DNA from: a virus
UHGV virus genome: UHGV-0346646
Length of the DNA: 11,385 nt
Reading direction: 5' to 3' (one strand)
Shown here one piece after another: positions 1,614-11,385 of the stretch. The position numbers and the translations under genes are program-made. The notes beneath the pieces are model-generated. The model made no database searches. It had not been told where the DNA came from and saw only the letters and a program-made list of their open reading frames with translations. Within the stretch, counting starts at the first letter, position 1. Each line of letters opens with the position of its first letter.

Positions 1614-1833
1614 GTACCCCTCCGCATTTTTTTTCGTTAGAAATAAGCGTTCTTCTTTCCTGTTCATCGCTCAGGAATACGCAGACCTCACCGCTAAGGC
1701 GTTTAAGTAAGCCGATGATTGCCCCTGATTCGCTGTCGGTCATCATGCCAGGGTAATCCTCTGCCAGTGCGCAAATAACTTCGATTTGGTGGGCGCGTTC
1801 TGCTGCCTGTTGTAGTGTGATTTCCTGGCTCAT
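1603..1833 (-). CDS. hypothetical protein (76 aa)
   Basis: ATG at 1833-1831 overlaps the stop of the upstream gene (ATGA); GGGGG upstream. Confidence 0.45.
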   Translation of the reverse strand: MSQEITLQQAAERAHQIEVICALAEDYPGMMTDSESGAIIGLLKRLSGEVCVFLSDEQERRTLISNEKKCGGVHVQ

Positions 1834-2030
1834 AAGCCTACCCCCTGACGAATACGGGCAGCAAATACCATCACGCAGCCAGCCGGAGATTGCTGGCGTG
1901 CTTCCTGTTCGCTGGTGGCCTCAATGGTAATCACGCGCGGTTGTGCCGTGCTCAGGGCGATAAAACGCCAGATGTATTTATTCAGGTTGTGCGAGTCCCG
2001 CCCTTGCGGGTGTGTGGTATGATTTAACAT
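1830..2030 (-). CDS. small protein (66 aa), possibly Icd-like; family assignment is tentative
   Basis: ATG at 2030-2028 with GAGG 5-6 nt upstream; first gene of the minus-strand operon, downstream of a strong predicted promoter. It is also the C-terminal 66 codons of the long track ORF 1830..3116, which I consider a read-through artefact. Confidence 0.5.
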   Translation of the reverse strand: MLNHTTHPQGRDSHNLNKYIWRFIALSTAQPRVITIEATSEQEARQQSPAGCVMVFAARIRQGVGL

Positions 2031-2067
2031 AGCTACCTCGATACTTTCGCTATCGTTGGTGGTTAGA

Positions 2068-2100
2068 AGCCCTGCGAGTGGTAACGACACTTGCGGGGCT
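2068..2100. promoter_or_regulatory. 13-bp-arm inverted repeat (AGCCCTGCGAGTG / CACTTGCGGGGCT, 7-nt loop) in the leader of the minus-strand operon
   Basis: Read directly: the arms pair fully if two G-U wobbles are allowed. Sits between the predicted minus-strand promoter and the start at 2030. Confidence 0.4.
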
Positions 2101-2127
2101 TTGCATTTATGCACCTTGATAATCTCA

Positions 2128-2168
2128 AGGTGTAGCCCACTATATGCTTTAGGTGTGGCCCACGTCAA
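2128..2168 (-). promoter_or_regulatory. predicted sigma70 promoter for the minus-strand small-gene operon, overlapped by two direct repeats (AGGTGTAGCCCAC 2128-2140 and AGGTGTGGCCCAC 2151-2163)
   Basis: On the minus strand: -35 TTGACG (2168-2163), 18-bp spacer, -10 TATAGT (2144-2139). The direct repeats overlap the spacer and the start site, as operator sites would. Confidence 0.4.
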
Positions 2169-2170
2169 GG

Positions 2171-2199
2171 GTTTTATTTGTGCTTTTTCTGTGTATACT
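2171..2199 (+). promoter_or_regulatory. possible promoter for the ribbon-helix-helix gene
   Basis: -10 TATACT at 2194-2199; the -35 is weak (GTTTTA region). Divergent from the minus-strand promoter. Confidence 0.3.
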
Positions 2200-2229
2200 G
2201 TCCCCCACCAATCCAACAGAGGAATAGAA

Positions 2230-2409
2230 ATGGCAACGGGTACAACAAACGCAAAATCACAAGCTCTAAAGGCTCGTGTACCACACGAAATAGTAAACGC
2301 CATGGAATCAGTGAAAGAATCAGGCGAAAGCACATCACAATTCATCATTGCGTCAATGCAAGGCGAGATCAAACGCCGCCAGCGCCGCAAGGCCAAAGAG
2401 CAGGAGTAA
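2230..2409 (+). CDS. ribbon-helix-helix (Arc/MetJ/CopG-like) DNA-binding protein, 59 aa
   Basis: ATG at 2230 with AGAGGAA Shine-Dalgarno. Protein MATGTTNAKSQALKARVPHEIVNAMESVKESGESTSQFIIASMQGEIKRRQRRKAKEQE has the strand-helix-helix pattern typical of RHH repressors. Followed by tandem plus-strand terminators. Confidence 0.6.
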   Translation: MATGTTNAKSQALKARVPHEIVNAMESVKESGESTSQFIIASMQGEIKRRQRRKAKEQE

Positions 2410-2466
2410 CCATCACCAGCGCCGTGGTGTGAGTAACTACGGCGCATTGCTATGCAGGACAACACA

Positions 2467-2640
2467 ATGACCGATAAAGAATTGACCAAAACATTATCAC
2501 CGGCACGGAAAAGACGGCGCAGAAAGATAGAGCATGAATCAGAAAGATTCGCGCCATGTGCTTTTGCCCTTGAGCAATTCCTTAAAGAGTACAGGGAAAA
2601 GCGCTCATTGCAGGTATGGCAACGAACTGAACCTGACTGA
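2467..2640 (+). CDS. possible small basic protein (57 aa)
   Basis: ATG at 2467 with a weak AGGA upstream; Lys/Arg-rich (SPARKRRRRK). Lies between the RHH gene and the plus-strand terminators. Weakly supported. Confidence 0.3.
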   Translation: MTDKELTKTLSPARKRRRRKIEHESERFAPCAFALEQFLKEYREKRSLQVWQRTEPD

Positions 2641-2719
2641 TTGCATTGCCCACCAGCCGCAAATGTGGCATTGTTGGCAATGCTCATGCGTTGGGGATAA
2701 CGTGTAGCTTGTGTCGAGG

Positions 2720-2748
2720 GGCCACCGTAGCGGGTGGCCTTTGTTTTG
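2720..2748 (+). terminator. rho-independent terminator
   Basis: Stem GGCCACC / GGTGGCC with loop GTAGCG, followed by TTTGTTTTG. Confidence 0.6.
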
Positions 2749-2843
2749 CCCGTTATTCGGCAATTGTGGCGCTTCTCCACATGGTTGATATAATCCCACT
2801 GCTCAGATTCATTTTTTGCGCAGTAGGTTAATTGTTCACAAAG

Positions 2844-2877
2844 GCGCTCCGGCAACGGGGCGCTTTTTGTTTTTATT
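2844..2877 (+). terminator. rho-independent terminator (second of a tandem pair)
   Basis: Stem GCGCTCCG / CGGGGCGC (one G-U) with loop GCAA, followed by TTTTTGTTTTTATT. Confidence 0.6.
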
Positions 2878-2882
2878 AGTTT

Positions 2883-3116
2883 GTAGAAACCTGACTCAGA
2901 GATAATGCTCATATTCTGATTGCCGTCAGGGGTGTAAGTTAAATTTACTCCCTTTTTATCATCAAACATCTGCAACGCTCTGGCGTTAACAATATTGGTT
3001 TCACTCCCGCCAGTAAGGCCGGAAATAACCGGAATAATTTCGGCAAAATTTTGCAGATTCTGTTTTTCAGGACGAACGAAGCCCCGCCCTTGTTCGGGAG
3101 AATATCCAGTATTCAT
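2883..3116 (-). CDS. BRO-N / antirepressor-like N-terminal domain ORF, probably truncated or degenerate
   Basis: First ~78 codons of track ORF 1830..3116 (…DDKKGVNLTYTPDGNQNMSIISESGFYKLI) resemble the C-terminal half of a BRO-N domain from memory. The similarity ends where the plus-strand terminator at 2844-2877 is encoded; the remaining ~350 codons have Cys/Trp/Arg-rich antisense-like composition. True end unknown. Confidence 0.3.
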
Positions 3117-3168
3117 GGTTAGATCTCTGTATTAGTGGATGGGTGGCGGCTGTGTGCCGCCAGCCTGA

Positions 3169-3357
3169 TTAGTGAACTGCCTCGCAGCTGTCCTTCCATG
3201 CCAGAACTTCGGATAAAGACCAGCCAACGGAACGACCGCCCAGCTTACGCCGTGATGGGAATTGTCCGGCTTTTTCCAGGTGGTACCGACATGAGCGGCT
3301 CAGGCCTGTAAGTTGCTGACATTCTTTTTCACGTATAAAGCGATCTGTGCTTAACAC
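3169..3357 (-). CDS. alpA: AlpA-family (prophage CP4-57-type) transcriptional regulator / excisionase-like HTH protein
   Basis: GTG start at 3357-3355 preceded by GGGGGA. Protein (…QQLTGLSRSCRYHLEKAGQFPSRRKLGGRSVGWSLSEVLAWK) matches the AlpA pattern TG.SR.T.Y…G.FP…KLG.RSVGW..SE…W. Sits next to the integrase, as in P4-like islands. Confidence 0.85.
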   Translation of the reverse strand: MLSTDRFIREKECQQLTGLSRSCRYHLEKAGQFPSRRKLGGRSVGWSLSEVLAWKDSCEAVH

Positions 3358-3640
3358 AATTCCCCCTTTGTTGTTTCTTAAAGAGTCATTGGGTGGATTA
3401 TTGGGTTGGGTTGTGTCGGATTGTGTCAGGGTGTTTGTGGAATGGCAAACACTGGCGGCGGTCGTTTTACAGAAGCAGGGGAAATGAGAATAAAAACTCT
3501 TTTAATTCATTATGATGCAAAGGCATAAAATTTTACTTTTACGCCTTTTTTACATATTTTTAAGAGTGATTCGCCAGTGTATAAAAAAACAGTACACCTA
3601 TAAAAATCAAATGGTTATTACGATGGCTGATTTTTAACCC

Positions 3641-3700
3641 GTTGTTCCATTTTGTTCCTTGTTGTTCGTCGTTGTGTCTCGTTGTTTCACGTTGTCCGCA
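3641..3700. repeat. cluster of short direct repeats (CGTTGTT/CGTTGTC units) between the integrase and alpA
   Basis: Read directly: gttgttccattttgttccttgttgttcgtcgttgtgtctcgttgtttcacgttgtcc. Related TTGTGTC units occur at 3400-3440. Confidence 0.5.
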
Positions 3701-3722
3701 TCCTGAAAAATCGCAAAAAAAA

Positions 3723-4970
3723 TTATATTTCTCTGGCTATTGGCAATGTGGTTACGTTTTCATGTGTTCCCGCCAGTATCCCTAACCGCTCCGTCCACAT
3801 ATCCAGCGCGTCACGTTTCGCATCCAGATAACGGGAATGGTTATAGACTCGTTGCATCCCTGGCATCTGATGACCTGTAAGCTGCTCCACGACGTGAGGA
3901 TCCACGCCTAAATCGTTCAGCATCGTTGTAAAGGTGCGCCGGATGTCATGCAGTGACCAGTGAGGGTGTTTTAGCCTCCTGTGCGCTAATCTGCCGTACT
4001 GCGACACGCTTGTTTCCTGTTTCACTTCCCCCAGCAATAAGCCCGTGTGCCTGTTCTGCTCCACCAGCTGCGTGACGAACGGCAGTATTGCTTCCGGTAT
4101 GGGCCGGAATATTGCCACCTTCGTTTTGCTGTGTTCTTTCGGCACGGTCCAGAGCATTTCGGTAAAATCCCACTCGCTGATCTCCGATAACCTCAGTTCT
4201 ACCGTCCGGCATCCGAAAACAATCAGGAGGCGGATTAGTGCGACGTAGTAAGGGGAAAATATTTTTTTGTCCAGTGCCTGCAATAATTCGCCAAGTTCTT
4301 TGGTGCTTAAGACGCGCTCGCTTATATCCGGTTTTTTCCCAACGTCCGCCACACTCATATCATCAAGAACGTTGCTGATTGCATAGCGCCGCCTCCGGCA
4401 GAACTTAAGCGCCTGTTTGCACGTCTGTAGCAAGAATCCGGCAGTAACAGGCGTTCGCTTTGCCACCTGGTCAAAACAGGCCAGCCAGTGCCGTAGCTCG
4501 CATTTATCCAGCGGCATAGCACCAATGTGCTGTATTACGTGATTATTAAGGCGCTTTTTCAGGGCGGCATAATCCACGCGGTTTTCCTTTGCGTACGACT
4601 CAAGCCAGTAGGTGAGCGCATCGCCAACCGTTACCGGCTTTAACGCTTCCTGTACGGTGTAATTCATTTCATGACGTGGATTTTTCCCCTCTGCCAGCCA
4701 TGCGCGACACTGGGCGGCTTTTTCCCTGGCTGATTTCAGGCTCAGATCAGGATAATTTCCCAGCTTAATGCGTTCCGGTGGTGCCCCCCTTCCCGTTCCG
4801 GCCCTGTAAGTGAAATACCAGGTTAAAAGGCCACTGGTTGAATGCCTGACGCTCAGGTTTCCACCGTCATTAAGAAAGGCTGTTTTTTGGGCGGGTGTGC
4901 CGTTGATTTTCCTCAGCTGTGTATCGCTCAGTTTGTTAAGTGCTCTGCTCATAATTTTGATTCCGGTCAT
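3723..4970 (-). CDS. int: P4-type tyrosine integrase (site-specific recombinase, phage integrase family)
   Basis: Conserved C-terminal catalytic region HDIRRTF…GHQMPGMQRVYNHSRYLD (H-x-x-R and catalytic Tyr context) and an N-terminal arm-binding-type region like P4/CP4-57 integrases. Start is ambiguous: GTG 4973, ATG 4970 or ATG 4952 (MSRALNKLSDTQ…). Confidence 0.9.
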   Translation of the reverse strand: MTGIKIMSRALNKLSDTQLRKINGTPAQKTAFLNDGGNLSVRHSTSGLLTWYFTYRAGTGRGAPPERIKLGNYPDLSLKSAREKAAQCRAWLAEGKNPRHEMNYTVQEALKPVTVGDALTYWLESYAKENRVDYAALKKRLNNHVIQHIGAMPLDKCELRHWLACFDQVAKRTPVTAGFLLQTCKQALKFCRRRRYAISNVLDDMSVADVGKKPDISERVLSTKELGELLQALDKKIFSPYYVALIRLLIVFGCRTVELRLSEISEWDFTEMLWTVPKEHSKTKVAIFRPIPEAILPFVTQLVEQNRHTGLLLGEVKQETSVSQYGRLAHRRLKHPHWSLHDIRRTFTTMLNDLGVDPHVVEQLTGHQMPGMQRVYNHSRYLDAKRDALDMWTERLGILAGTHENVTTLPIAREI

Positions 4971-4972
4971 CA

Positions 4973-5009
4973 CAATTAACTACACCATTAACTACACCGA
5001 TCGTTGCAC
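4973..5009. repeat. direct repeat copy 1 (contains tandem AACTACACC units), immediately upstream of and overlapping the integrase start
   Basis: caattaactacaccattaactacaccgatcgttgcac. A near-identical copy lies 234 bp away at 5207-5242; the flanks share a degenerate ACAACGTG-GAACAA motif. Confidence 0.7.
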
Positions 5010-5206
5010 AAAGGGCTACAACGTGAAACAAGCTGGAACAAGGAAAATCACAAATCTGTTTATAATCAAAAACATAATGAACAACCTGAAACATTATGAA
5101 ACGGCAAAAAACACTAATTGATAAAATATGTCCTTTTATCACTACATCAAGGCAAGCCATTGATTTAATTAAATGATTTGCACTGCAAAAAGTGCTAAAA
5201 ATCGCA

Positions 5207-5242
5207 AATTGACTACACCATTAACTACACCGATCGTTGCAC
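5207..5242. repeat. direct repeat copy 2 of the integrase-upstream repeat
   Basis: aattgactacaccattaactacaccgatcgttgcac; one mismatch against copy 1. Confidence 0.7.
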
Positions 5243-5451
5243 TGTATGAAACAACGTGGAACAAATAGACACAAGAAATATACAGGCGGGTCATCTTTCC
5301 AGGGGGAAGCGCGCCAATTCATGAGGGGCGTTAATGTCGATATGGGGATCCCCATAACGGGGCTACCTGGCTTTTTTCCGGTTAAATGTCAATCAGGCTG
5401 GTGGGTTTTACATACCCTTGATCACCGTAATGATGATCCAGATGTGCGCCT

Positions 5452-5507
5452 TTCCACCAATGGTGGAAAAGCCCACAGCAGGCCGCCCAGCCTCCCCCAA
5501 TGGGGGA
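5452..5507. repeat. pair of related GC-rich palindromes (TTCCACCAATGGTGGAA at 5452-5468; TCCCCCAATGGGGGA at 5493-5507)
   Basis: Read directly; centres 41 bp apart. A third palindrome, ATGGGGATCCCCAT, is at 5342-5355. Candidate protein-binding or recombination core sites in the non-coding junction. Confidence 0.5.
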
Positions 5508-5994: not shown

Positions 5995-6066
5995 CGGGTC
6001 CTTCCTGGAATTATGGCCCGTTACGGGGCGGCGACCTCGCGCGTTTTCACTATTTATGAAAATTTT
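5995..6066 (+). other. lambda-type cos site, copy 1 (cosN with cohesive-end sequence GGGCGGCGACCT at 6026-6037)
   Basis: gttacgGGGCGGCGACCTcgcgcgttttcactatttatgaaaattttt is near-identical to the lambda genome junction (…GTTACG / GGGCGGCGACCTCGCGGGTTTTCGCTATTTATGAAAATTTTCCGG) as I remember it. Confidence 0.75.
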
Positions 6067-6075
6067 TCGGGATCC

Positions 6076-6240: not shown

Positions 6241-6675
6241 TTACTGTTCTGTATCGGCTGATTGCTCCATGCTGGCACGGCGAACGCTTACGGCATGACG
6301 CCACCCAGCCAGAAAGCCAGCCATTTTATTTCGTGCCTTGCTCACATCTTCCGGTGAATAGCCGTAAATCTGCAAACCTTCATCAAATCGATGTTCTGTT
6401 TCTTCACTGGAGTACTCGTCACGCTCAGATGAAAGCAGCCTGGCAAACATAATTTTTTCCAGCGCACTGGTTTCTACGTGATATCTGATGGCCTCAAGAC
6501 GGCTTTTACCTGAAGACCAAAGCAATGTATGCCCGATGTGATAACCGCCAGACTTTCCGCGATCCGCATTAAGATACGGCATCCCCTGTTTGGTCCATGC
6601 GCGAATAGTGGTTCTGTTAACCTTGAAATGTTCAGCTATTTCCTGCTGACTTACAAAACAAGCTTTATCAATCAT
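6241..6675 (-). CDS. lambda Nu1-like small terminase-type protein (N-terminal winged-HTH DNA-binding domain), 144 aa
   Basis: ATG at 6675. N-terminus VSQQEIAEHFKVNRTTIRAWTKQGMPYLNADRGKSGGYHIGHTLLW aligns by eye with lambda Nu1 KKQLADIFGASIRTIQNWQEQGMPVLRGGGKGNEVLYDSAAVIKW. Shorter than Nu1 (181 aa). Lies about 90 bp downstream (minus strand) of cosN copy 2. Confidence 0.7.
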   Translation of the reverse strand: MIDKACFVSQQEIAEHFKVNRTTIRAWTKQGMPYLNADRGKSGGYHIGHTLLWSSGKSRLEAIRYHVETSALEKIMFARLLSSERDEYSSEETEHRFDEGLQIYGYSPEDVSKARNKMAGFLAGWRHAVSVRRASMEQSADTEQ

Positions 6676-6744
6676 AATGTTACCTTAACTGCATGGTTAA
6701 ATATTAATCAAGTGGTGGTGGTGTCACCTTCACGGAAAAACGTC

Positions 6745-6807
6745 ATAAATAGCGAAAACCCGCGAGGTCGCCGCCCCGTAACGGGCCATAATTCCAGGAA
6801 GGACCCG
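6745..6807 (-). other. lambda-type cos site, copy 2, inverted relative to copy 1 (cohesive-end sequence at 6765-6776 read on the minus strand)
   Basis: Reverse complement reads cgggtccttcctggaattatggcccgttacgGGGCGGCGACCTcgcgggttttcgctatttatg; 47 bp are identical to copy 1 and about 70 bp match with two mismatches. Confidence 0.75.
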
Positions 6808-6836: not shown

Positions 6837-7250
6837 TCAGATGGTTTTCAGTATGCGATCGATGTCGCCGTCATCGCCCTGGTTTCTGCCATCGTATGCC
6901 ATGCCAGCTGATACGGCTTGCGGGCTGTGCATGTCCATAAAGTTTTCAAAGGCTGCGGTAAGCTCTGGTGCAACCTTTGGGCGCTCCTGCTCTATGGTCA
7001 TGTTCAGGATTTCACGAGCATTATCGACGCTAATACATGGCACGTTTGCCATTGCACGTAACAGCGGCTGATAGTCTTTATGCTCATGAAGCGCCATAAT
7101 CGCATCAGCGCGCGGCTTGTCCTGCTCTTCCAGTTTGTTTAGTTGATATACGGCCTCATAGGTTGATAAACCTCTGTCAGCCATTGCCCGCGCTTCGGCT
7201 TTAAATTTACTCGCCAGCGGTAGCGTCATGATGCTTTCATTCGTTGCCAT
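6837..7250 (-). CDS. hypothetical protein (137 aa), last gene of the capsid operon; possible scaffold-like or capsid accessory protein (speculative)
   Basis: ATG at 7250 with GGGGG 5 nt upstream; predicted helix-rich and acidic. Function not recognised. Confidence 0.55.
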   Translation of the reverse strand: MATNESIMTLPLASKFKAEARAMADRGLSTYEAVYQLNKLEEQDKPRADAIMALHEHKDYQPLLRAMANVPCISVDNAREILNMTIEQERPKVAPELTAAFENFMDMHSPQAVSAGMAYDGRNQGDDGDIDRILKTI

Positions 7251-7262
7251 CGTTCCCCCTGC

Positions 7263-7598
7263 TTATCGGGCCAGCGGCTGAACGGATACGCCGGAACCCG
7301 CAAAGGCGGCGCATTTTTTCGCATCGGTGTCGACGCTCTCAGGCCAGTTAACGGCGGCAATATTGAATATCCCCGTCTTGTAACACTGTGCTGATTTCTG
7401 CTTTGACGTGTCCACAGGGTACGAGGTCAGATAAACAGCCTTGCCAGATTCCTGACCATCCCACGGCTTAAACTCGCCATTGTCCGCCAGCATCAGCGGG
7501 GTAAATTCCTGAATAACGCCAGCATCAGCGGCAAAATGTACCAGCGTCGTGGCGACCTGCTGACTGCCTGCAAATAACTCAATGTATGGAGTGTCCAT
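7263..7598 (-). CDS. head decoration protein, lambda gpD family
   Basis: TPLMLADNGEFKPWDG…YKTGIFNIAAVNWPES…AKKCAAFAGSGVSV aligns by eye with lambda gpD TPLMLDTSSRKLVAWDG…YKSGTFRYEDVLWPEA…TKKRTAFAGTAISI. Similar length (111 vs 110 aa). GGGGG Shine-Dalgarno. Confidence 0.8.
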   Translation of the reverse strand: MDTPYIELFAGSQQVATTLVHFAADAGVIQEFTPLMLADNGEFKPWDGQESGKAVYLTSYPVDTSKQKSAQCYKTGIFNIAAVNWPESVDTDAKKCAAFAGSGVSVQPLAR

Positions 7599-7609
7599 AG
7601 AATCCCCCG

Positions 7610-8665
7610 TTAACCAATTTTGACGGTAACAAATTTGCGAATATCTGCCGGAACCGGCTGCGGTGCGCTGTGCGTCTGCACGTACTCAATCGCCGGATCG
7701 CCGTCCTCAATCCAGTTTTTCGGGTAAAACATGTTTTGCGTTGCGCCCGTTCTTACTGCGTCCTGATCCATAATCGCACCATAGGCCACCAGCCCTTTAT
7801 TGTTGGTGTTGCCCAGGACAAGCAAATCAGGCTCAAGGAAATATTTTTCTGTGCCGTCGCTGTCAGTGTATTTGCCGGAATAGACGATAAGGGCAATATC
7901 GCCCAGATAGCCTTTAAAGCTCACCACTTCGCCCAGGTTTTTACAGGCCAGCTCTGCGGCGGACTCTGAACCACGGGAAAGATCGTACAGCTCACGGAAT
8001 TTTTTAAAGCTGCGTAACGTTCGCCATACCTCAGCGCCCATAATCATGACGTTTGCGGGGCAACCAGCCTGATCGGCGTATAGTTCGATATCATAGATTG
8101 GATCGTGGGTTTCTTTGTCCTGCTCTGACCATTTTTTCCCGTCGGCCTGCTCTATGATGTTTTTTTCCGGTATCTTCCAGTCGATTTCATAGCGCTCTAT
8201 GCCTTCGCCTTCAATGATGTTTTTTCCGGTCGTTACCGCATTTACCGCCAGCCATTCCACGCGCGCTTTTATGGCGTTTATCTGGCGGCGCATATTGCCA
8301 GTAATCAGGCGCATACGGCGATAGGTAGGGTCGTTAAGCTGTGCCGGATCTTCTCCAGCCATGCGCATGATGGTTTTCGTTGGATCGATTTCGTGCTTTG
8401 GCTTCATGTAGCCAGGTTTAATCGTGCTGGTTTCGTACCCTTTATCGCGCTGAACCTGGCTACCCACCATAGGCGAACAAAACGCCGACATGGTGACTTC
8501 TTCAATGTCCAGGGTATCCAGCATGATGTTTTGCGTGCTGAATGTCGCCACGTTCGGGAAAAACAGCGTGGTAAACAGCGGACTGAATTTAAATTCCGCA
8601 ATATCCCCGCGATTCAGGTACGCAAAAAGCTGGTTAGTGTTAAGTGCCATTGCTTTTACTGTCAT
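7610..8665 (-). CDS. major capsid protein, lambda gpE family
   Basis: 351 aa with FKFSPLFTTLFF, PGYMKPKHE, DPTYRRMR, SFKGYLGDIALIVYSG, YPKNW and GDPAIE motifs matching lambda gpE (FKFDPLFLRLFF, PGYVKPKHE, DPAYRRRR, SYKGMYGDVAIVVYSG, YPKNW, GDPARE) at the same relative positions. Confidence 0.9.
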   Translation of the reverse strand: MTVKAMALNTNQLFAYLNRGDIAEFKFSPLFTTLFFPNVATFSTQNIMLDTLDIEEVTMSAFCSPMVGSQVQRDKGYETSTIKPGYMKPKHEIDPTKTIMRMAGEDPAQLNDPTYRRMRLITGNMRRQINAIKARVEWLAVNAVTTGKNIIEGEGIERYEIDWKIPEKNIIEQADGKKWSEQDKETHDPIYDIELYADQAGCPANVMIMGAEVWRTLRSFKKFRELYDLSRGSESAAELACKNLGEVVSFKGYLGDIALIVYSGKYTDSDGTEKYFLEPDLLVLGNTNNKGLVAYGAIMDQDAVRTGATQNMFYPKNWIEDGDPAIEYVQTHSAPQPVPADIRKFVTVKIG

Positions 8666-8871
8666 TATTCACCCCCGTGAACCTGATTCATACCCAGCGC
8701 CGCGCGTAAATAGGCGCGTACCTGCCAGCCTGTTGACGGCTCAACCATCGCCAGCGGATCAAGTCCTGCCGCAATGCCTGCTTTTACGTTCTGCTGGTGG
8801 CGTTCCTTGAGCGCCTTCACGATGTCGGGGCTTATGTACACCGAAACACCGCCTTTTTTCTCTTCAGCCAT
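8665..8871 (-). CDS. hypothetical protein (68 aa), first gene of the capsid operon
   Basis: ATG at 8871; stop overlaps the capsid gene start by 1 nt (TAATG). Shine-Dalgarno spacing is long (AGAGGA ~12 nt upstream), so the start is uncertain. Confidence 0.45.
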   Translation of the reverse strand: MAEEKKGGVSVYISPDIVKALKERHQQNVKAGIAAGLDPLAMVEPSTGWQVRAYLRAALGMNQVHGGE

Positions 8872-8904
8872 AGTAAGAAATTCCTCTTTGACTTAAAAAA
8901 TCAT

Positions 8905-8953
8905 AACTGGATGTTCATCCAGCTCTGATTATAATCATGATTGCATTTTGTGC
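8905..8953 (-). promoter_or_regulatory. predicted capsid-operon promoter with overlapping palindromes
   Basis: Minus strand: -35 TTGCAC (8953-8948), 16-bp spacer, -10 TATAAT (8931-8926) inside the palindrome GATTATAATC. The perfect inverted repeat CTGGATG-TT-CATCCAG (8905-8920) lies at about +1 to +16. Confidence 0.4.
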
Positions 8954-9036
8954 AATGATGTTGAGTTGCGTTGCAAATTATGAAATGATTATCCCGATCA
9001 TGTGTGTCAGTGCACCAAAAAGCCTCATATGCAAAA

Positions 9037-9073
9037 GCCCGATAAGCCACCTCTGACCTTATCGGGCTTTTTT
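9037..9073. terminator. orphan terminator-like hairpin in the 415-bp intergenic region
   Basis: GCCCGATAAG - 11-nt loop - CTTATCGGGC followed by TTTTTT on the plus strand (AAAA precedes it). No obvious plus-strand gene upstream. Confidence 0.35.
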
Positions 9074-9248
9074 ATCTGCCTGCAAAGATGTCGAACGAAA
9101 ATTAACCACAACCATCATCTTTTTTGCATCAAAACAATTAAAAACAATAAATTACGCTCATGATGATGATGACGATAAAATCACAAAAATGCGCTTTTTT
9201 CCGCGCCTCCCGCCCCGTGTTCAGGCCCACCCCGCCAGGAGGACCCGT

Positions 9249-9271
9249 AAAAAAGCCGGATTGCTCCGGCT
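9249..9271 (-). terminator. rho-independent terminator after the SSB gene
   Basis: Minus-strand hairpin AGCCGGA-GCAA-TCCGGCT followed by TTTTTT. Sequence is near-identical to the terminator module at 6791-6840. Confidence 0.6.
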
Positions 9272-9286: not shown

Positions 9287-9709
9287 TTAAAACGGTATGT
9301 TATCCCCGTACGGATCATCATTCCCCGCCTGTTGTTTTGCCCTGTTCAGCGCGTCAGTAGCCTGGCCCTGTTGACCTTTTTTGCCGCCCAGTCGCGCCGT
9401 TCGCGCACTGATTACACTGTCTGCGATAACCTGCCAGCCCTGCCGCGTTTCTCCGTTCTGCCCAGTCCACTGGCTGATCTGCATGTTACCCGCCACGCTC
9501 AGGAGTTCACCCTTGCGGTGCCTTTCCAGTGCTTCGGCCTGTCTGCCAAATGCCAGGACGGATAACCACATCGTCGCCGTTCCGTCATCTGCCTGGCTGC
9601 ACGGAAGGGGGACCGCCATACGCGCCAGCGTCATCGGTGTGCCCTTGCTGGTCTGTTTTACCTGCGGGTCGTCCACCAGCCGCCCGTAAGCTGCTATCTG
9701 TGCTGTCAT
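9287..9709 (-). CDS. ssb: single-stranded DNA-binding protein (SSB, OB-fold)
   Basis: Aligns by eye with E. coli SSB: G.L..DP.V, W..V..FG..AE, RKG, W.G..G..R. C-terminal acidic tail ends NDDPYGDNIPF (compare SSB …DFDDDIPF). GAGGTGG Shine-Dalgarno. Confidence 0.75.
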   Translation of the reverse strand: MTAQIAAYGRLVDDPQVKQTSKGTPMTLARMAVPLPCSQADDGTATMWLSVLAFGRQAEALERHRKGELLSVAGNMQISQWTGQNGETRQGWQVIADSVISARTARLGGKKGQQGQATDALNRAKQQAGNDDPYGDNIPF

Positions 9710-10272: not shown

Positions 10273-11385
10273 TTATAAAAACGCGTCGCACTCGTCTGTT
10301 GTTATTGCGTTAGTCTGCGTTACCCCCTTAACTTTCCGCGTAATATATTCATGTCCGTAAACTTTTGCGGCAGGCTTCATAGCCTTTCCAAAGTCATTTA
10401 CGTTTAGCGGTTTGCTCCTGCCTGCGTATGCCATAAACGCCAGATAGACGCGGTAAAGGCTGTTCCTGGTCGTGTACTTCACTGAATCGCCACCGCCCCC
10501 CATCATCAGGCCGCGCGCTTCCTCCAGAAAATTCAGGAACTGGCAAAACTCAATAACCGGATCCGTCTGTTGCTTTATTGCCAGTGCTTCATCACCGTCA
10601 CGCTGTTCCAGTAGTAAAGCCCGTGCCTTCTCAGGGTCGGTAAAGTTCGCCAGCAATCGGCGGATAATGACAGGGATTTCAGCCGCGATCTTTTCCGGTA
10701 GCTCCCTGTCTTTTTCGGCCTCACTGACGATATTGTCGAAACGGAAAATCACGCGACGACGTGCCACACCTCCGGCCCGTTCGGTGAATATCATCGGGTT
10801 ATTGTTGGTCGCCAGCACCACCGCCCTGATTACAGCCGTGAAACGCTTTTCGTATTTCGGGTTAATTTCCACGGGGTCACCGCCCGTGATTTTCTTGATG
10901 CCCGTTCCTTCGCCTGTATATTTCGGCTGGTCAGCCAGGACGATAAGACGACTCCCGACAACCTGCGCACGTCCACCAGCATCATCAAGCGATGTCATTT
11001 CAGCGCTTACCGTGTTCTGTTTCCCTGCCAGAAGGCTGGCTATGTGCGTGAATGTACTTTTACCGCTCCCGCCGTCTCCGGTGGCCTCAATAAACATCTG
11101 CCAGTCGTACCGGTTCGCCATAATCATGTACAGCGCGGCACATATACGCATCATCTTGCGCGGGTCTTTTCCGGCTGCGTGCTCAAGCCATTTATGAAAG
11201 TTTGGCGCGTTATCGCGGATGTTCTCCCCTGGTGCTGGTGGCGTGTACTCAATGCCGTTGTGCGTGGTGATCCAGTTCTCCGGCGTGTGCGGGGAAAATC
11301 CCCCCGTTTTCAGGTCAAGCGCACCATTGGCGAACGGCAGCAAATCGCCGGACGGCTCGCCCATTGGTTCGGCAATAACTTTTAA
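10273..11385 (-). CDS. P4-family phage/plasmid primase C-terminal region with D5_N-like and SF3 helicase (P-loop) domains; 3-prime part only (start lies beyond window end)
   Basis: Walker A GDGGSGKST; upstream D5_N-like LLPFANGALDLKTGGFSPHTPENWIT; Walker B-like LIVLADQ. The frame is open upstream of the first in-window Met to position 11385, so the gene starts outside the window. Confidence 0.85.
   Translation of the reverse strand, partial: LKVIAEPMGEPSGDLLPFANGALDLKTGGFSPHTPENWITTHNGIEYTPPAPGENIRDNAPNFHKWLEHAAGKDPRKMMRICAALYMIMANRYDWQMFIEATGDGGSGKSTFTHIASLLAGKQNTVSAEMTSLDDAGGRAQVVGSRLIVLADQPKYTGEGTGIKKITGGDPVEINPKYEKRFTAVIRAVVLATNNNPMIFTERAGGVARRRVIFRFDNIVSEAEKDRELPEKIAAEIPVIIRRLLANFTDPEKARALLLEQRDGDEALAIKQQTDPVIEFCQFLNFLEEARGLMMGGGGDSVKYTTRNSLYRVYLAFMAYAGRSKPLNVNDFGKAMKPAAKVYGHEYITRKVKGVTQTNAITTDECDAFL

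What the first reader, a model, noticed from the sequence alone, without database searches (positions are those of the whole stretch)
8905..8953. Palindromes overlapping the predicted capsid-operon promoter
The -10 TATAAT lies inside GATTATAATC, and a perfect CTGGATG-TT-CATCCAG inverted repeat covers about +1 to +16. This layout suggests repressor or activator control at the start site, or a 5-prime stem-loop in the mRNA.
Basis: seen in the sequence. Interest (0 to 1): 0.4.

Follow-up and report, generated by a model that had tools for sequence, protein, structure and literature searches.

The report
SOS (LexA) box on satellite capsid promoter
The palindrome at the start of this phage-satellite's capsid operon looks like a binding site for LexA, the host DNA-damage repressor, so the satellite probably switches on its capsid genes when the cell's SOS response fires; the second palindrome, around the -10 box, is a chance feature.

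Summary
The window is an EcCICFT073-type phage-inducible chromosomal island (PICI) of E. coli, with its genes on the minus strand.

GATTATAATC (8927-8936) is at chance level. It is just a consensus -10 TATAAT, which is almost self-complementary.

CTGGATG-NN-CATCCAG (8907-8922) is real and conserved. It sits just downstream of a conserved TTGCAC-16-TATAAT promoter, 33 nt before the ATG of a 68-aa ORF that heads the capsid/decoration/scaffold-like operon.

- It fits the LexA (SOS) box CTG-N10-CAG, and its arms are identical to those of the E. coli ruvA box.
- Its heterology index is 6-9, inside the range of accepted boxes; 1-2 of 2000 shuffles of the 150-nt upstream region score as well.
- The box sequence is kept in Salmonella. 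It is also kept in Pluralibacter, 13 nt further downstream.
- A distant Lelliottia satellite has a canonical, non-hairpin box (CTGTTTTTTCATACAG) at the same place.
- Three E. coli variants break the stem but move towards the LexA consensus.

So a LexA operator is favoured over an mRNA stem-loop. LexA binding itself is untested. In E. coli the palindrome extends to 14-bp arms plus a U-tract (terminator-like); that part is unexplained. This parallels LexA control of SaPI operon I, so it is a new member of a known kind.

The parts
8905..8924 (-). 20-bp LexA (SOS) box-like operator AGCTGGATGAACATCCAGTT.
   Evidence: Heterology index 8.1 here and 6.0-9.2 in variants, against 0.6-12.8 (leave-one-out) for 18 published E. 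coli boxes. Arms identical to the ruvA box. 1/2000 shuffles of the 150-nt upstream region score as well. Conserved in E. coli, Salmonella and Pluralibacter; replaced by a canonical box in Lelliottia.
8928..8933 (-). -10 hexamer TATAAT, inside the chance palindrome GATTATAATC (8927-8936).
   Evidence: TATAAT in 50 of 53 distinct variants; the other three read TGTAAT (one) and TAAAAT (two). 10-bp palindromes are at chance level.
8950..8955 (-). -35 hexamer TTGCAC (16-nt spacer), lying within the proximal repeat.
   Evidence: TTGC is invariant. The tool's promoter scan did not list it because only 3 of 6 positions match TTGACA.
8941..8959 (-). Proximal 19-bp repeat ATCATTGCACAAAATGCAA containing the inverted repeat TTGCA-N5-TGCAA. 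Centre at about -27; overlaps the -35.
   Evidence: Conserved in every lineage, including the clades that lack the LexA box.
8971..8989 (-). Distal 19-bp repeat ATCATTTCATAATTTGCAA (TTTCA-N5-TGCAA), 30 bp upstream of the proximal one. Centre at about -57.
   Evidence: ATTTCATRATTTGCAAC is almost invariant. Both copies are perfect in Edwardsiella.
8895..8930 (-). Extended palindrome (14-bp arms 8930-8917 / 8912-8899, loop GAAC) followed by a U-tract; terminator-like. The left arm starts inside the -10.
   Evidence: RNA fold of -13 kcal/mol here and -17 to -22 in variants with perfect arms. Pair table. Not kept in Salmonella L217 or Lelliottia.
8665..8871 (-). 68-aa ORF, first gene of the operon (c1498 of CFT073), function unknown. 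Shine-Dalgarno AGAGGA at 8887-8882.
7610..8665 (-). Major capsid protein homologue (lambda E family; c1499).
   Evidence: Pfam PF03864, E = 2e-52.
7263..7598 (-). Head decoration protein homologue (lambda D family; c1500).
   Evidence: Pfam PF02924.
6837..7250 (-). 137-aa protein (c1501) resembling the C-terminal part of head maturation proteases; possibly scaffold-like.
   Evidence: phrog_1999, and phrog_53 positions 495-567.
9026..9078 (-). Intrinsic terminator closing the upstream replication/SSB module, about 100 nt before the promoter.
   Evidence: Inverted repeat I1; conserved in relatives.

Best explanation
The 16-bp palindrome is an operator for the host SOS repressor LexA. It is placed over the transcription start of the satellite's own capsid-module promoter (TTGCAC-16-TATAAT).

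Inferred mechanism: in an undamaged cell a LexA dimer sits on AGCTGGATGAACATCCAGTT and hinders RNA polymerase. It is a ruvA-grade, medium-strength box, so repression would be partial. DNA damage activates RecA, LexA cleaves itself, and the promoter is freed. The 68-aa protein and the capsid, decoration and scaffold-like proteins are then made at the time when SOS also induces the lambdoid helper prophage.

Shown here: the sequence, its conservation, its score against known LexA boxes, and its position relative to the conserved -10. Inferred: LexA binding, the start site, and SOS inducibility.

GATTATAATC is only the -10 box. Two conserved TTGCA-N5-TGCAA repeats upstream probably bind a second, unidentified regulator.
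For: (1) Motif. The box is CTG-N10-CAG with GAT/ATC inner bases. Its arms are identical to the ruvA box CTGGATATCTATCCAG, which is listed with 17 other E. coli SOS boxes in PMC3009722 Table 4.

(2) Score. The heterology index is 8.1 in the window and 6.0-9.2 in variants. The same boxes score 0.6-12.8 leave-one-out. The index stays at 7.4-9.1 when ruvA and cho are left out of the matrix. The next-best background site in the window scores 13.7. Only 3 of 200 shuffles of the whole window, and 1 of 2000 shuffles of the 150-nt upstream region, reach the score.

(3) Sequence-level conservation where the surroundings have diverged.
- Salmonella L217 has GACTGGATAAATATCCAGAT and L387 has GACTGGATGAAAATCCAGTA.
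- Pluralibacter L218 has AACTGGATGTTTGTCCAGTT, displaced 13 nt downstream.

(4) Independent case. A Lelliottia satellite (capsid 59% identical) has a canonical box CACTGTTTTTTCATACAGTT (index 5.8, 0 of 2000 shuffles) 25 nt before the same small ORF. It cannot form the hairpin.

(5) Three distinct E. coli variants have ATCCAG changed to ATACAG. This breaks the stem but moves towards the consensus (index 5.95).

(6) Position. The box lies just after the -10 and 25-36 nt before the ATG. This is typical of LexA-controlled genes (PMC8072944: boxes overlapping the start site, 21.6 +/- 5.8 bp from the start codon).

(7) Precedent. SaPI operon I, the packaging module of staphylococcal PICIs, is controlled by LexA (Ubeda et al. 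2007, cited).

(8) In CFT073 RNA-seq, c1498-c1501 change together while the SSB gene upstream does not. This is compatible with a separate promoter here.
Against: - There is no binding or expression test of LexA at this site.
- Both half-sites read CTGG rather than the consensus CTGT. This is rare among known boxes (ruvA; cho on one side).
- One clade of E. coli islands, an Edwardsiella element and one other relative lack any box (best index above 16). The box is therefore not essential to the promoter.
- One variant (L174) has a 1-nt insertion in the centre. That would destroy LexA spacing but keep a hairpin.
- LexA does not explain the 14-bp arm extension, or its few compensatory changes (L159, L160, L161).
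- In CFT073 the operon rose about 4-fold on a 23-to-37 C shift without SOS induction (sulA unchanged), so other controls act too. The PerC gene just upstream also rose (not significant), so the start of the unit is not pinned down.
Confidence: 0.65

Rival explanations
1. The palindrome works as RNA. One form: the full 14-bp hairpin plus U-tract is an intrinsic terminator or attenuator for transcripts entering from upstream, insulating the capsid operon or awaiting antitermination. The other form: the short inner hairpin is a 5-prime stabilising stem-loop on the operon mRNA.
For: - Hairpin of -13 kcal/mol here and -17 to -22 in variants, followed by U6-7; z-scores -4 to -8. It was listed by the terminator scan.
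- 14-bp arms are beyond chance.
- Left-arm changes are mostly A-to-G, giving G-U pairs. There are a few compensatory pairs (L159 two, L160 one, L161-type one).
- The L174 insertion keeps the hairpin.
- In Pluralibacter an 8-bp stem is followed directly by U6.
Against: - The left arm begins inside the conserved -10, so RNA from this promoter would carry only a 4-5 bp stem (last fold).
- A strong terminator already lies 100 nt upstream.
- Pair 6 is mismatched in 21 of 51 variants.
- Stem sequence, not just pairing, is fixed across three genera.
- Salmonella L217 has lost the extension, and Lelliottia has a LexA box with no hairpin.
- ATACAG variants break the core stem.
- The U-tract persists in the clade that has no hairpin (-2.2 kcal/mol), so it is not tied to the stem.
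- The compensatory changes and the loop inversion in L166 could come from template switching in a quasi-palindrome rather than from selection.
Confidence: 0.15
2. The palindrome is an operator for a satellite- or helper-phage-encoded regulator rather than for LexA. Candidates are the 68-aa first gene product acting on its own promoter, or a helper repressor or activator.
For: - The promoter carries other conserved dyads (two TTGCA-N5-TGCAA repeats), so some dedicated regulator is expected.
- The 68-aa protein always accompanies the promoter. Its N-terminal extended segment plus two helices is compatible with a ribbon-helix-helix type fold.
- The palindrome extends beyond the 20 bp that LexA needs.
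Against: - The core is unique in the island, with no second copy that a dedicated regulator would be expected to use.
- The 68-aa protein and the TTGCA repeats are present in clades that lack the palindrome, so they do not co-vary with it.
- A chance fit of an unrelated operator to CTG-N10-CAG with LexA-like inner and flanking bases is improbable, and Lelliottia has a different sequence that still fits LexA.
- The fold search gave no DNA-binding match.
Confidence: 0.12
3. The palindromes have no function of their own. They are by-products of an AT-rich promoter and of palindrome-generating replication errors.
For: GATTATAATC and AATCATGATT are at chance frequency, and AATCATGATT is not conserved. 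Perfect 7+7 repeats occur several times per window by chance.
Against: The CTGGAT-N4-ATCCAG core is invariant while the adjacent discriminator and flanks vary. It survives in other genera and is relocated intact in Pluralibacter.
Confidence: 0.06

Closest known systems
LexA control of SaPI operon I (packaging/interference module of Staphylococcus aureus pathogenicity islands; Ubeda et al. 2007, Mol Microbiol 65:41)
   Same: In both, a phage satellite of the PICI class has its late (capsid/packaging) module behind its own promoter, carrying a host LexA site. The module is therefore tied to the SOS response that also induces the helper prophage.
   Different: The host is Gram-negative, so the LexA motif differs (CTG-N10-CAG rather than the Firmicute motif). 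The genes are unrelated (lambda E/D-type capsid and decoration homologues). Binding and regulation are shown for SaPIs and only predicted here. Published work on Gram-negative PICIs describes AlpA and a helper cue as the switch and does not mention LexA.
E. coli ruvAB SOS box (CGCTGGATATCTATCCAGCA) and cho box (CACTGGATAGATAACCAGCA)
   Same: The half-site CTGGAT/ATCCAG and the 16-bp spacing are the same; all 12 arm bases are identical to ruvA. The heterology index is similar.
   Different: The central four bases and the flanks differ. ruvA is a chromosomal repair gene with demonstrated LexA control; this site is on a mobile island and is untested.
LexA-controlled modules of other mobile elements (Gifsy prophage dinI genes and replication-protein genes, prophage endolysins of ExPEC, integron integrases)
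   Same: A host LexA box on a mobile element's promoter couples element functions to DNA damage (PMC8072944; PMC9621596; PMC3108266, listed).
   Different: Those boxes control dinI, replication-protein, lysis or integrase genes, not a satellite's capsid module.
EcCICFT073, the model Gram-negative cos-type PICI
   Same: The promoter region is 98% identical to CFT073 (H47). Gene order is the same: SSB, 68-aa ORF (c1498), capsid (c1499), decoration (c1500), c1501, lambda-type cos, Rpp-like protein.
   Different: This island has a Stx-phage-like cos segment where CFT073 has a PerC-family gene. It lies in tandem with a second satellite.

Membership tests
LexA (SOS) box of Gammaproteobacteria | 16-bp core CTG-N10-CAG with an A/T-rich centre, scored by heterology index against accepted boxes | tested here: met
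   CTGGATGAACATCCAG. The index is 8.1 (variants 6.0-9.2) against 0.6-12.8 leave-one-out for 18 published boxes, and 7.4-9.1 with ruvA and cho removed from the matrix. Position 4 is G, not T, in both halves, as in ruvA.
LexA (SOS) box of Gammaproteobacteria | Located at or near the promoter or start site of the regulated gene | tested here: inconclusive
   The box starts 5 nt after the conserved TATAAT and ends 33 nt before the ATG. The start site is predicted, not mapped.
LexA (SOS) box of Gammaproteobacteria | Conserved as a LexA-type motif in orthologous promoters | tested here: met
   Kept in 47 of 51 distinct E. coli variants, in two Salmonella lineages and in Pluralibacter. There is an independent canonical box in Lelliottia. 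It is absent from three other lineages.
LexA (SOS) box of Gammaproteobacteria | Bound by LexA; gene derepressed on RecA-dependent LexA cleavage | not testable with these tools
   No binding or SOS expression data for this locus were found. The CFT073 temperature-shift data show induction without SOS, which neither supports nor excludes LexA control.
Rho-independent (intrinsic) terminator | Stable stem-loop immediately followed by a U-tract, lying inside a transcript | tested here: inconclusive
   The stem (14 bp, -13 to -22 kcal/mol) and the U6 tract are present. The left arm overlaps the -10, so only transcripts from upstream would contain it. The structure is not conserved outside E. coli.
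Sigma-70 promoter | -35 and -10 hexamers at 16-18 bp spacing, conserved, with transcription starting downstream | tested here: inconclusive
   A perfect TATAAT and TTGCAC at 16 nt are conserved in 50 of 53 variants. CFT073 RNA-seq shows c1498-c1501 behaving as a unit distinct from the SSB gene. There is no start-site mapping.
Gram-negative cos-type PICI (EcCICFT073 type) | Primase/replication module, cos site(s), Rpp-type small-terminase mimic, size near 11 kb, integrase and alpA | tested here: met
   Primase, SSB, lambda-type cosN at 6733-6779 and 6023-6070, and an HTH Rpp-like ORF at 6241-6675. Near-identical islands in Nissle 1917 and CFT073 carry int and alpA. This island's own int and alpA lie outside the window.

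The most novel reading that the evidence does not exclude
Gram-negative cos-type PICIs wire their capsid-module promoter directly into the host SOS response through a LexA box. This input is separate from the known AlpA/helper-phage switch. It is combined with a second, still unidentified regulator that binds the two universally conserved TTGCA-N5-TGCAA dyads. In E. coli the LexA box has also been built into a 14-bp terminator hairpin. The same DNA would then block read-through from the replication module as RNA and gate the local promoter as an operator.
Probability: 0.2. Interest if true: 0.55.

Novelty: new member of a known kind. Interest (0 to 1): 0.4.

Why it matters
Published work on Gram-negative PICIs presents AlpA, switched on by a helper-phage cue, as the control of the island's cycle. 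[quoted passage not shown] The function of those genes (c1499/c1500) is itself unknown.

A LexA box on their promoter would mean the late module listens to DNA damage directly, as in staphylococcal SaPIs. That would be convergent regulatory logic in unrelated satellites. It would also mean that antibiotics which trigger SOS switch these genes on even without a helper.

It gives a cheap, direct experiment (LexA gel shift; reporter in lexA mutants). It also points to a second conserved operator pair whose binding protein is unknown.

Tried and rejected
- **Species-representative genomes.** Searching with the capsid protein found nothing. A 17-nt pattern (ATTTCATRATTTGCAAC) returned only chance hits in unrelated phyla. 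Both scans were wasted.
- **IMG/VR with a Salmonella capsid** only re-fetched the E. coli loci.
- **Rfam.** No family matches in the window.
- **cosB / Rpp binding region.** Rejected. The lambda-type cos sites are at 6733-6779 and 6023-6070, and CFT073 has a PerC gene, not cos, upstream of the same promoter.
- **AlpA operator shared with the alpA promoter.** No second copy of the 19-bp repeat or of the palindrome was found in the Nissle or CFT073 islands.
- **Q-type antitermination (pR'-qut-tR' analogue).** Considered, because of the hairpin plus U-tract and the dyad in the spacer. Set aside, because the hairpin's left arm overlaps the -10 and no upstream promoter is conserved.
- **Fur box over the -10.** 13 of 19 matches by eye to the consensus as I remember it. 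Judged an AT-rich coincidence, since the AATCATGATT part is not conserved.
- **FadR and CytR.** FadR has a different spacing. CytR octamers resemble TTGCA, but no CRP sites are present. Both comparisons are from memory and were not pursued.
- **SOS expression data.** The D-serine EHEC and Nissle transcriptome papers list only curated genes. Nothing was usable for this locus.

Full report
**What the window is**

The genes around the finding lie on the minus strand. In transcription order they are:
- a D5/P4-type primase-helicase (10273-11364);
- an SSB (9287-9709);
- a 68-aa ORF (8665-8871);
- a lambda E-type major capsid protein (7610-8665);
- a lambda D-type decoration protein (7263-7598);
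- a 137-aa protein (6837-7250);
- a 144-aa HTH protein (6241-6675).

The intergenic region and the small ORF are 98-99% identical to islands in several hundred E. coli genomes, including Nissle 1917 and CFT073. In CFT073 this is EcCICFT073, the model Gram-negative phage-inducible chromosomal island. There c1499 is the capsid homologue, c1500 the decoration homologue and c1503 the packaging-redirection protein Rpp.

Lambda-type cosN sequences lie at 6733-6779 (minus) and 6023-6070 (plus). So the promoter region is not the island's lambda-type cos or cosB.

**The observation**

Both palindromes exist as described. Read on the coding strand, the region is:

TTGCAC (8955-8950) - 16 nt - TATAAT (8933-8928) - CAGAG - CTGGATGAACATCCAG (8922-8907) - TTATGATTTTTT - AAGTCAAAGAGGAA - ... 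ATG (8871).

- GATTATAATC is TATAAT plus one flanking pair. Ten-bp palindromes occur 10 times in the window against 12.9 in shuffles, so it carries no information.
- The adjacent AATCATGATT is likewise at chance level, and relatives do not keep it.
- A perfect 7+7 repeat is not rare on its own (13 observed, 5.7 expected).
- This one extends to 14-bp arms (8930-8917 / 8912-8899), a class with 0.32 expected per window.

**Comparative evidence**

I collected the homologous upstream region from 14 annotated E. coli genomes chosen across the identity range, and from 80 IMG/VR contigs. This gave 53 distinct promoter variants.

- The -10 is TATAAT in 50 of them.
- The TTGC of the -35 is invariant.
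- In the 51 variants of the main clade, CTGGAT and ATCCAG never vary, with four exceptions: three variants with ATACAG and one with a 1-nt central insertion.
- The four central bases vary (GAAC, AAAC, TTTC, and GTTC, an inverted loop).
- The five bases between the -10 and the core vary freely.

More distant relatives were reached through homologues of the 68-aa and capsid proteins.

- Two Salmonella lineages keep CTGGAT-N4-ATCCAG at the same place.
- Pluralibacter keeps AACTGGATGTTTGTCCAGTT, but 13 nt further from the -10.
- A Lelliottia satellite has an otherwise unalignable promoter. It carries CACTGTTTTTTCATACAGTT 25 nt before the small ORF.
- A second E. coli clade, an Edwardsiella element and one further relative have nothing comparable.

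**Identification as a LexA box**

CTG-N10-CAG is the core of the E. coli SOS box. The arms here are identical to those of the ruvA box CTGGATATCTATCCAG, printed with 17 other boxes in PMC3009722.

I built a heterology-index matrix from those 18 sites.

| Site | Index |
|---|---|
| Window site | 8.1 |
| CFT073 | 7.0 |
| O157-type variant | 6.3 |
| ATACAG variant | 5.95 |
| Salmonella | 6.7 and 8.3 |
| Pluralibacter | 7.6 |
| Lelliottia | 5.8 |

- The training boxes score 0.6-12.8 when each is left out in turn.
- Removing ruvA and cho from the matrix changes little (7.4-9.1).
- In the window, the next-best background site scores 13.7. One other site, at 3575, scores 5.7 and is discussed below.
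- Shuffles of each 150-nt upstream region reach the observed score 0-2 times in 2000. The three lineages without a box have best scores of 16-18, which is ordinary for shuffles.
- For scale, published indices of SOS genes in Salmonella run from 1.5 to about 13. Boxes of tightly LexA-dependent genes overlap the start site and lie about 22 bp from the start codon.

**Operator or RNA hairpin?**

In E. coli the palindrome folds as a 14-bp stem with a GAAC loop and a following U-tract. The energy is -13 kcal/mol here and down to -22 in variants. A few variants show compensatory changes in the outer arm. That is the anatomy of an intrinsic terminator and cannot be dismissed.

Six points argue that the conserved function is protein binding:
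1. The left arm starts inside the -10. RNA from this promoter would retain only 4-5 pairs.
2. What is conserved across genera is the sequence of the inner 16-20 bp, not merely pairing.
3. Salmonella L217 has lost the outer arms, and Lelliottia has a LexA-consensus box that cannot pair.
4. The ATACAG variants break a central G-C pair yet improve the LexA match.
5. Outer pair 6 is mismatched in 21 of 51 variants.
6. The U-tract is also present in the clade with no hairpin.

The loop inversion in L166 shows that this quasi-palindrome undergoes template-switch events. Such events can also create apparent compensatory changes without selection.

The single insertion variant (L174) points the other way. 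So do the G-U-type substitutions. I therefore keep an RNA role, mainly as a back-up terminator for read-through from the replication module, as a secondary possibility at about 0.15.

**Expression data**

The only expression data I found come from a CFT073 temperature-shift study (PMC12890032 supplement).

| Gene | log2 change, 23 to 37 C |
|---|---|
| c1498 | +2.2 |
| c1499 | +2.1 |
| c1500 | +1.5 |
| c1501 | +1.2 |
| SSB (c1497) | +0.2 |
| rpp (c1503) | +0.3 |
| sulA | +0.25 (not significant) |
| PerC gene | +1.9 (not significant) |

- This fits a separate transcription unit beginning at or just before c1498.
- It shows that something other than SOS also modulates the unit.
- It says nothing about LexA.

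**Other elements of the promoter**

Two 19-bp direct repeats lie at 8989-8971 and 8959-8941, each containing TT(T/G)CA-N5-TGCAA. They are 30 bp apart, centred near -57 and -27. They are conserved in every lineage, including those without the LexA box, and both copies are perfect in Edwardsiella. They occur nowhere else in the Nissle or CFT073 islands.

They look like operators for a dimeric regulator that I could not identify. The always-linked 68-aa protein is a candidate. Its model (an extended N-terminus plus two helices, pLDDT 72) has no significant structural neighbour.

**Comparison with what is known**

The closest system is LexA control of SaPI operon I in S. aureus. The closest sequence is the ruvAB SOS box. 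LexA boxes on prophage and integron promoters are common.

The searchable literature on Gram-negative PICIs describes AlpA and a helper cue as the switch. [quoted passage not shown] I found no mention of a LexA site or of this promoter.

**Verdict**

One palindrome is trivial. The other is most likely a LexA operator (about 0.65). The finding is a new member of a known kind, of moderate interest, and is directly testable.

Noticed in passing
window 8941-8959 and 8971-8989 (minus strand): Two 19-bp direct repeats, each with the dyad TT(T/G)CA-N5-TGCAA, lie 30 bp apart at about -27 and -57 of the promoter. They are conserved in all lineages, including those without the LexA box, and both are perfect in Edwardsiella (L385/L229). 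The binding protein is unknown. A further TTTCA-N5-TGCAA match lies at 5237-5251.
   Followed up: partly
window 9084-9253: A segment 87-91% identical to the non-coding stretch just upstream of the small-terminase gene in Stx-converting and VT1-Sakai phages (a lambdoid cos region). CFT073 has a PerC-family gene at this place instead. With the two lambda-type cosN sequences at 6733-6779 (minus) and 6023-6070 (plus), this island would carry three cos-like sites of two types.
   Followed up: partly
window 3575-3594: A second LexA-box-like site, TACTGTTTTTTTATACACTG (heterology index 5.7; right half CAC instead of CAG). It lies between an integrase gene (3723-4973, minus) and an AlpA-like gene (3169-3357, minus). 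The identical sequence lies upstream of alpA in EcCICFT073 (L004:29). The Nissle island has a different LexA-like site, AGCTGTACAGAAAACCAGTA, at L003:6301, at the end of its integrase gene.
   Followed up: partly
window 1830-5260: A second satellite lies in tandem: integrase (3723-4973), AlpA-like 62-aa ORF (3169-3357), and a 428-aa protein with an Icd-like C-terminus (1830-3116), all on the minus strand. A 31-nt exact direct repeat, GTGCAACGATCGGTGTAGTTAATGGTGTAGT, occurs at about 5212-5242 and 4979-5009 and looks like duplicated attachment-site sequence. No tRNA gene is in the window.
   Followed up: partly
window 6837-7250 (minus): The 137-aa protein (c1501 homologue) matches the C-terminal part of head maturation proteases (phrog_53, positions 495-567). 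In lambda this region corresponds, from memory, to the nested scaffold protein Nu3. The operon may therefore encode capsid, decoration and scaffold homologues.
   Followed up: no
L166 (IMG/VR contig) compared with window 8913-8916: One relative has the 4-nt centre of the palindrome inverted (GAAC to GTTC) with the arms unchanged. This is the signature of a template-switch or hairpin-mediated inversion.
   Followed up: no
window 5444-5476, 5341-5356 and 3519-3548: Other long inverted repeats: TTTTCCACCAATGGTGGAAAA-type arms at 5444-5476, GGGGATCCCC-centred at 5341-5356, and one at 3519-3548. They lie in the junction between the two satellites and in the int-alpA spacer. They were not examined.
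   Followed up: no
CFT073 genes c1498-c1501 (homologues of window 6837-8871): Published RNA-seq (PMC12890032 supplement) shows this operon rising 2- to 4.7-fold on a 23-to-37 C shift. The flanking SSB and rpp genes and sulA do not change. This suggests temperature-dependent control, possibly silencing of the AT-rich promoter.
   Followed up: partly
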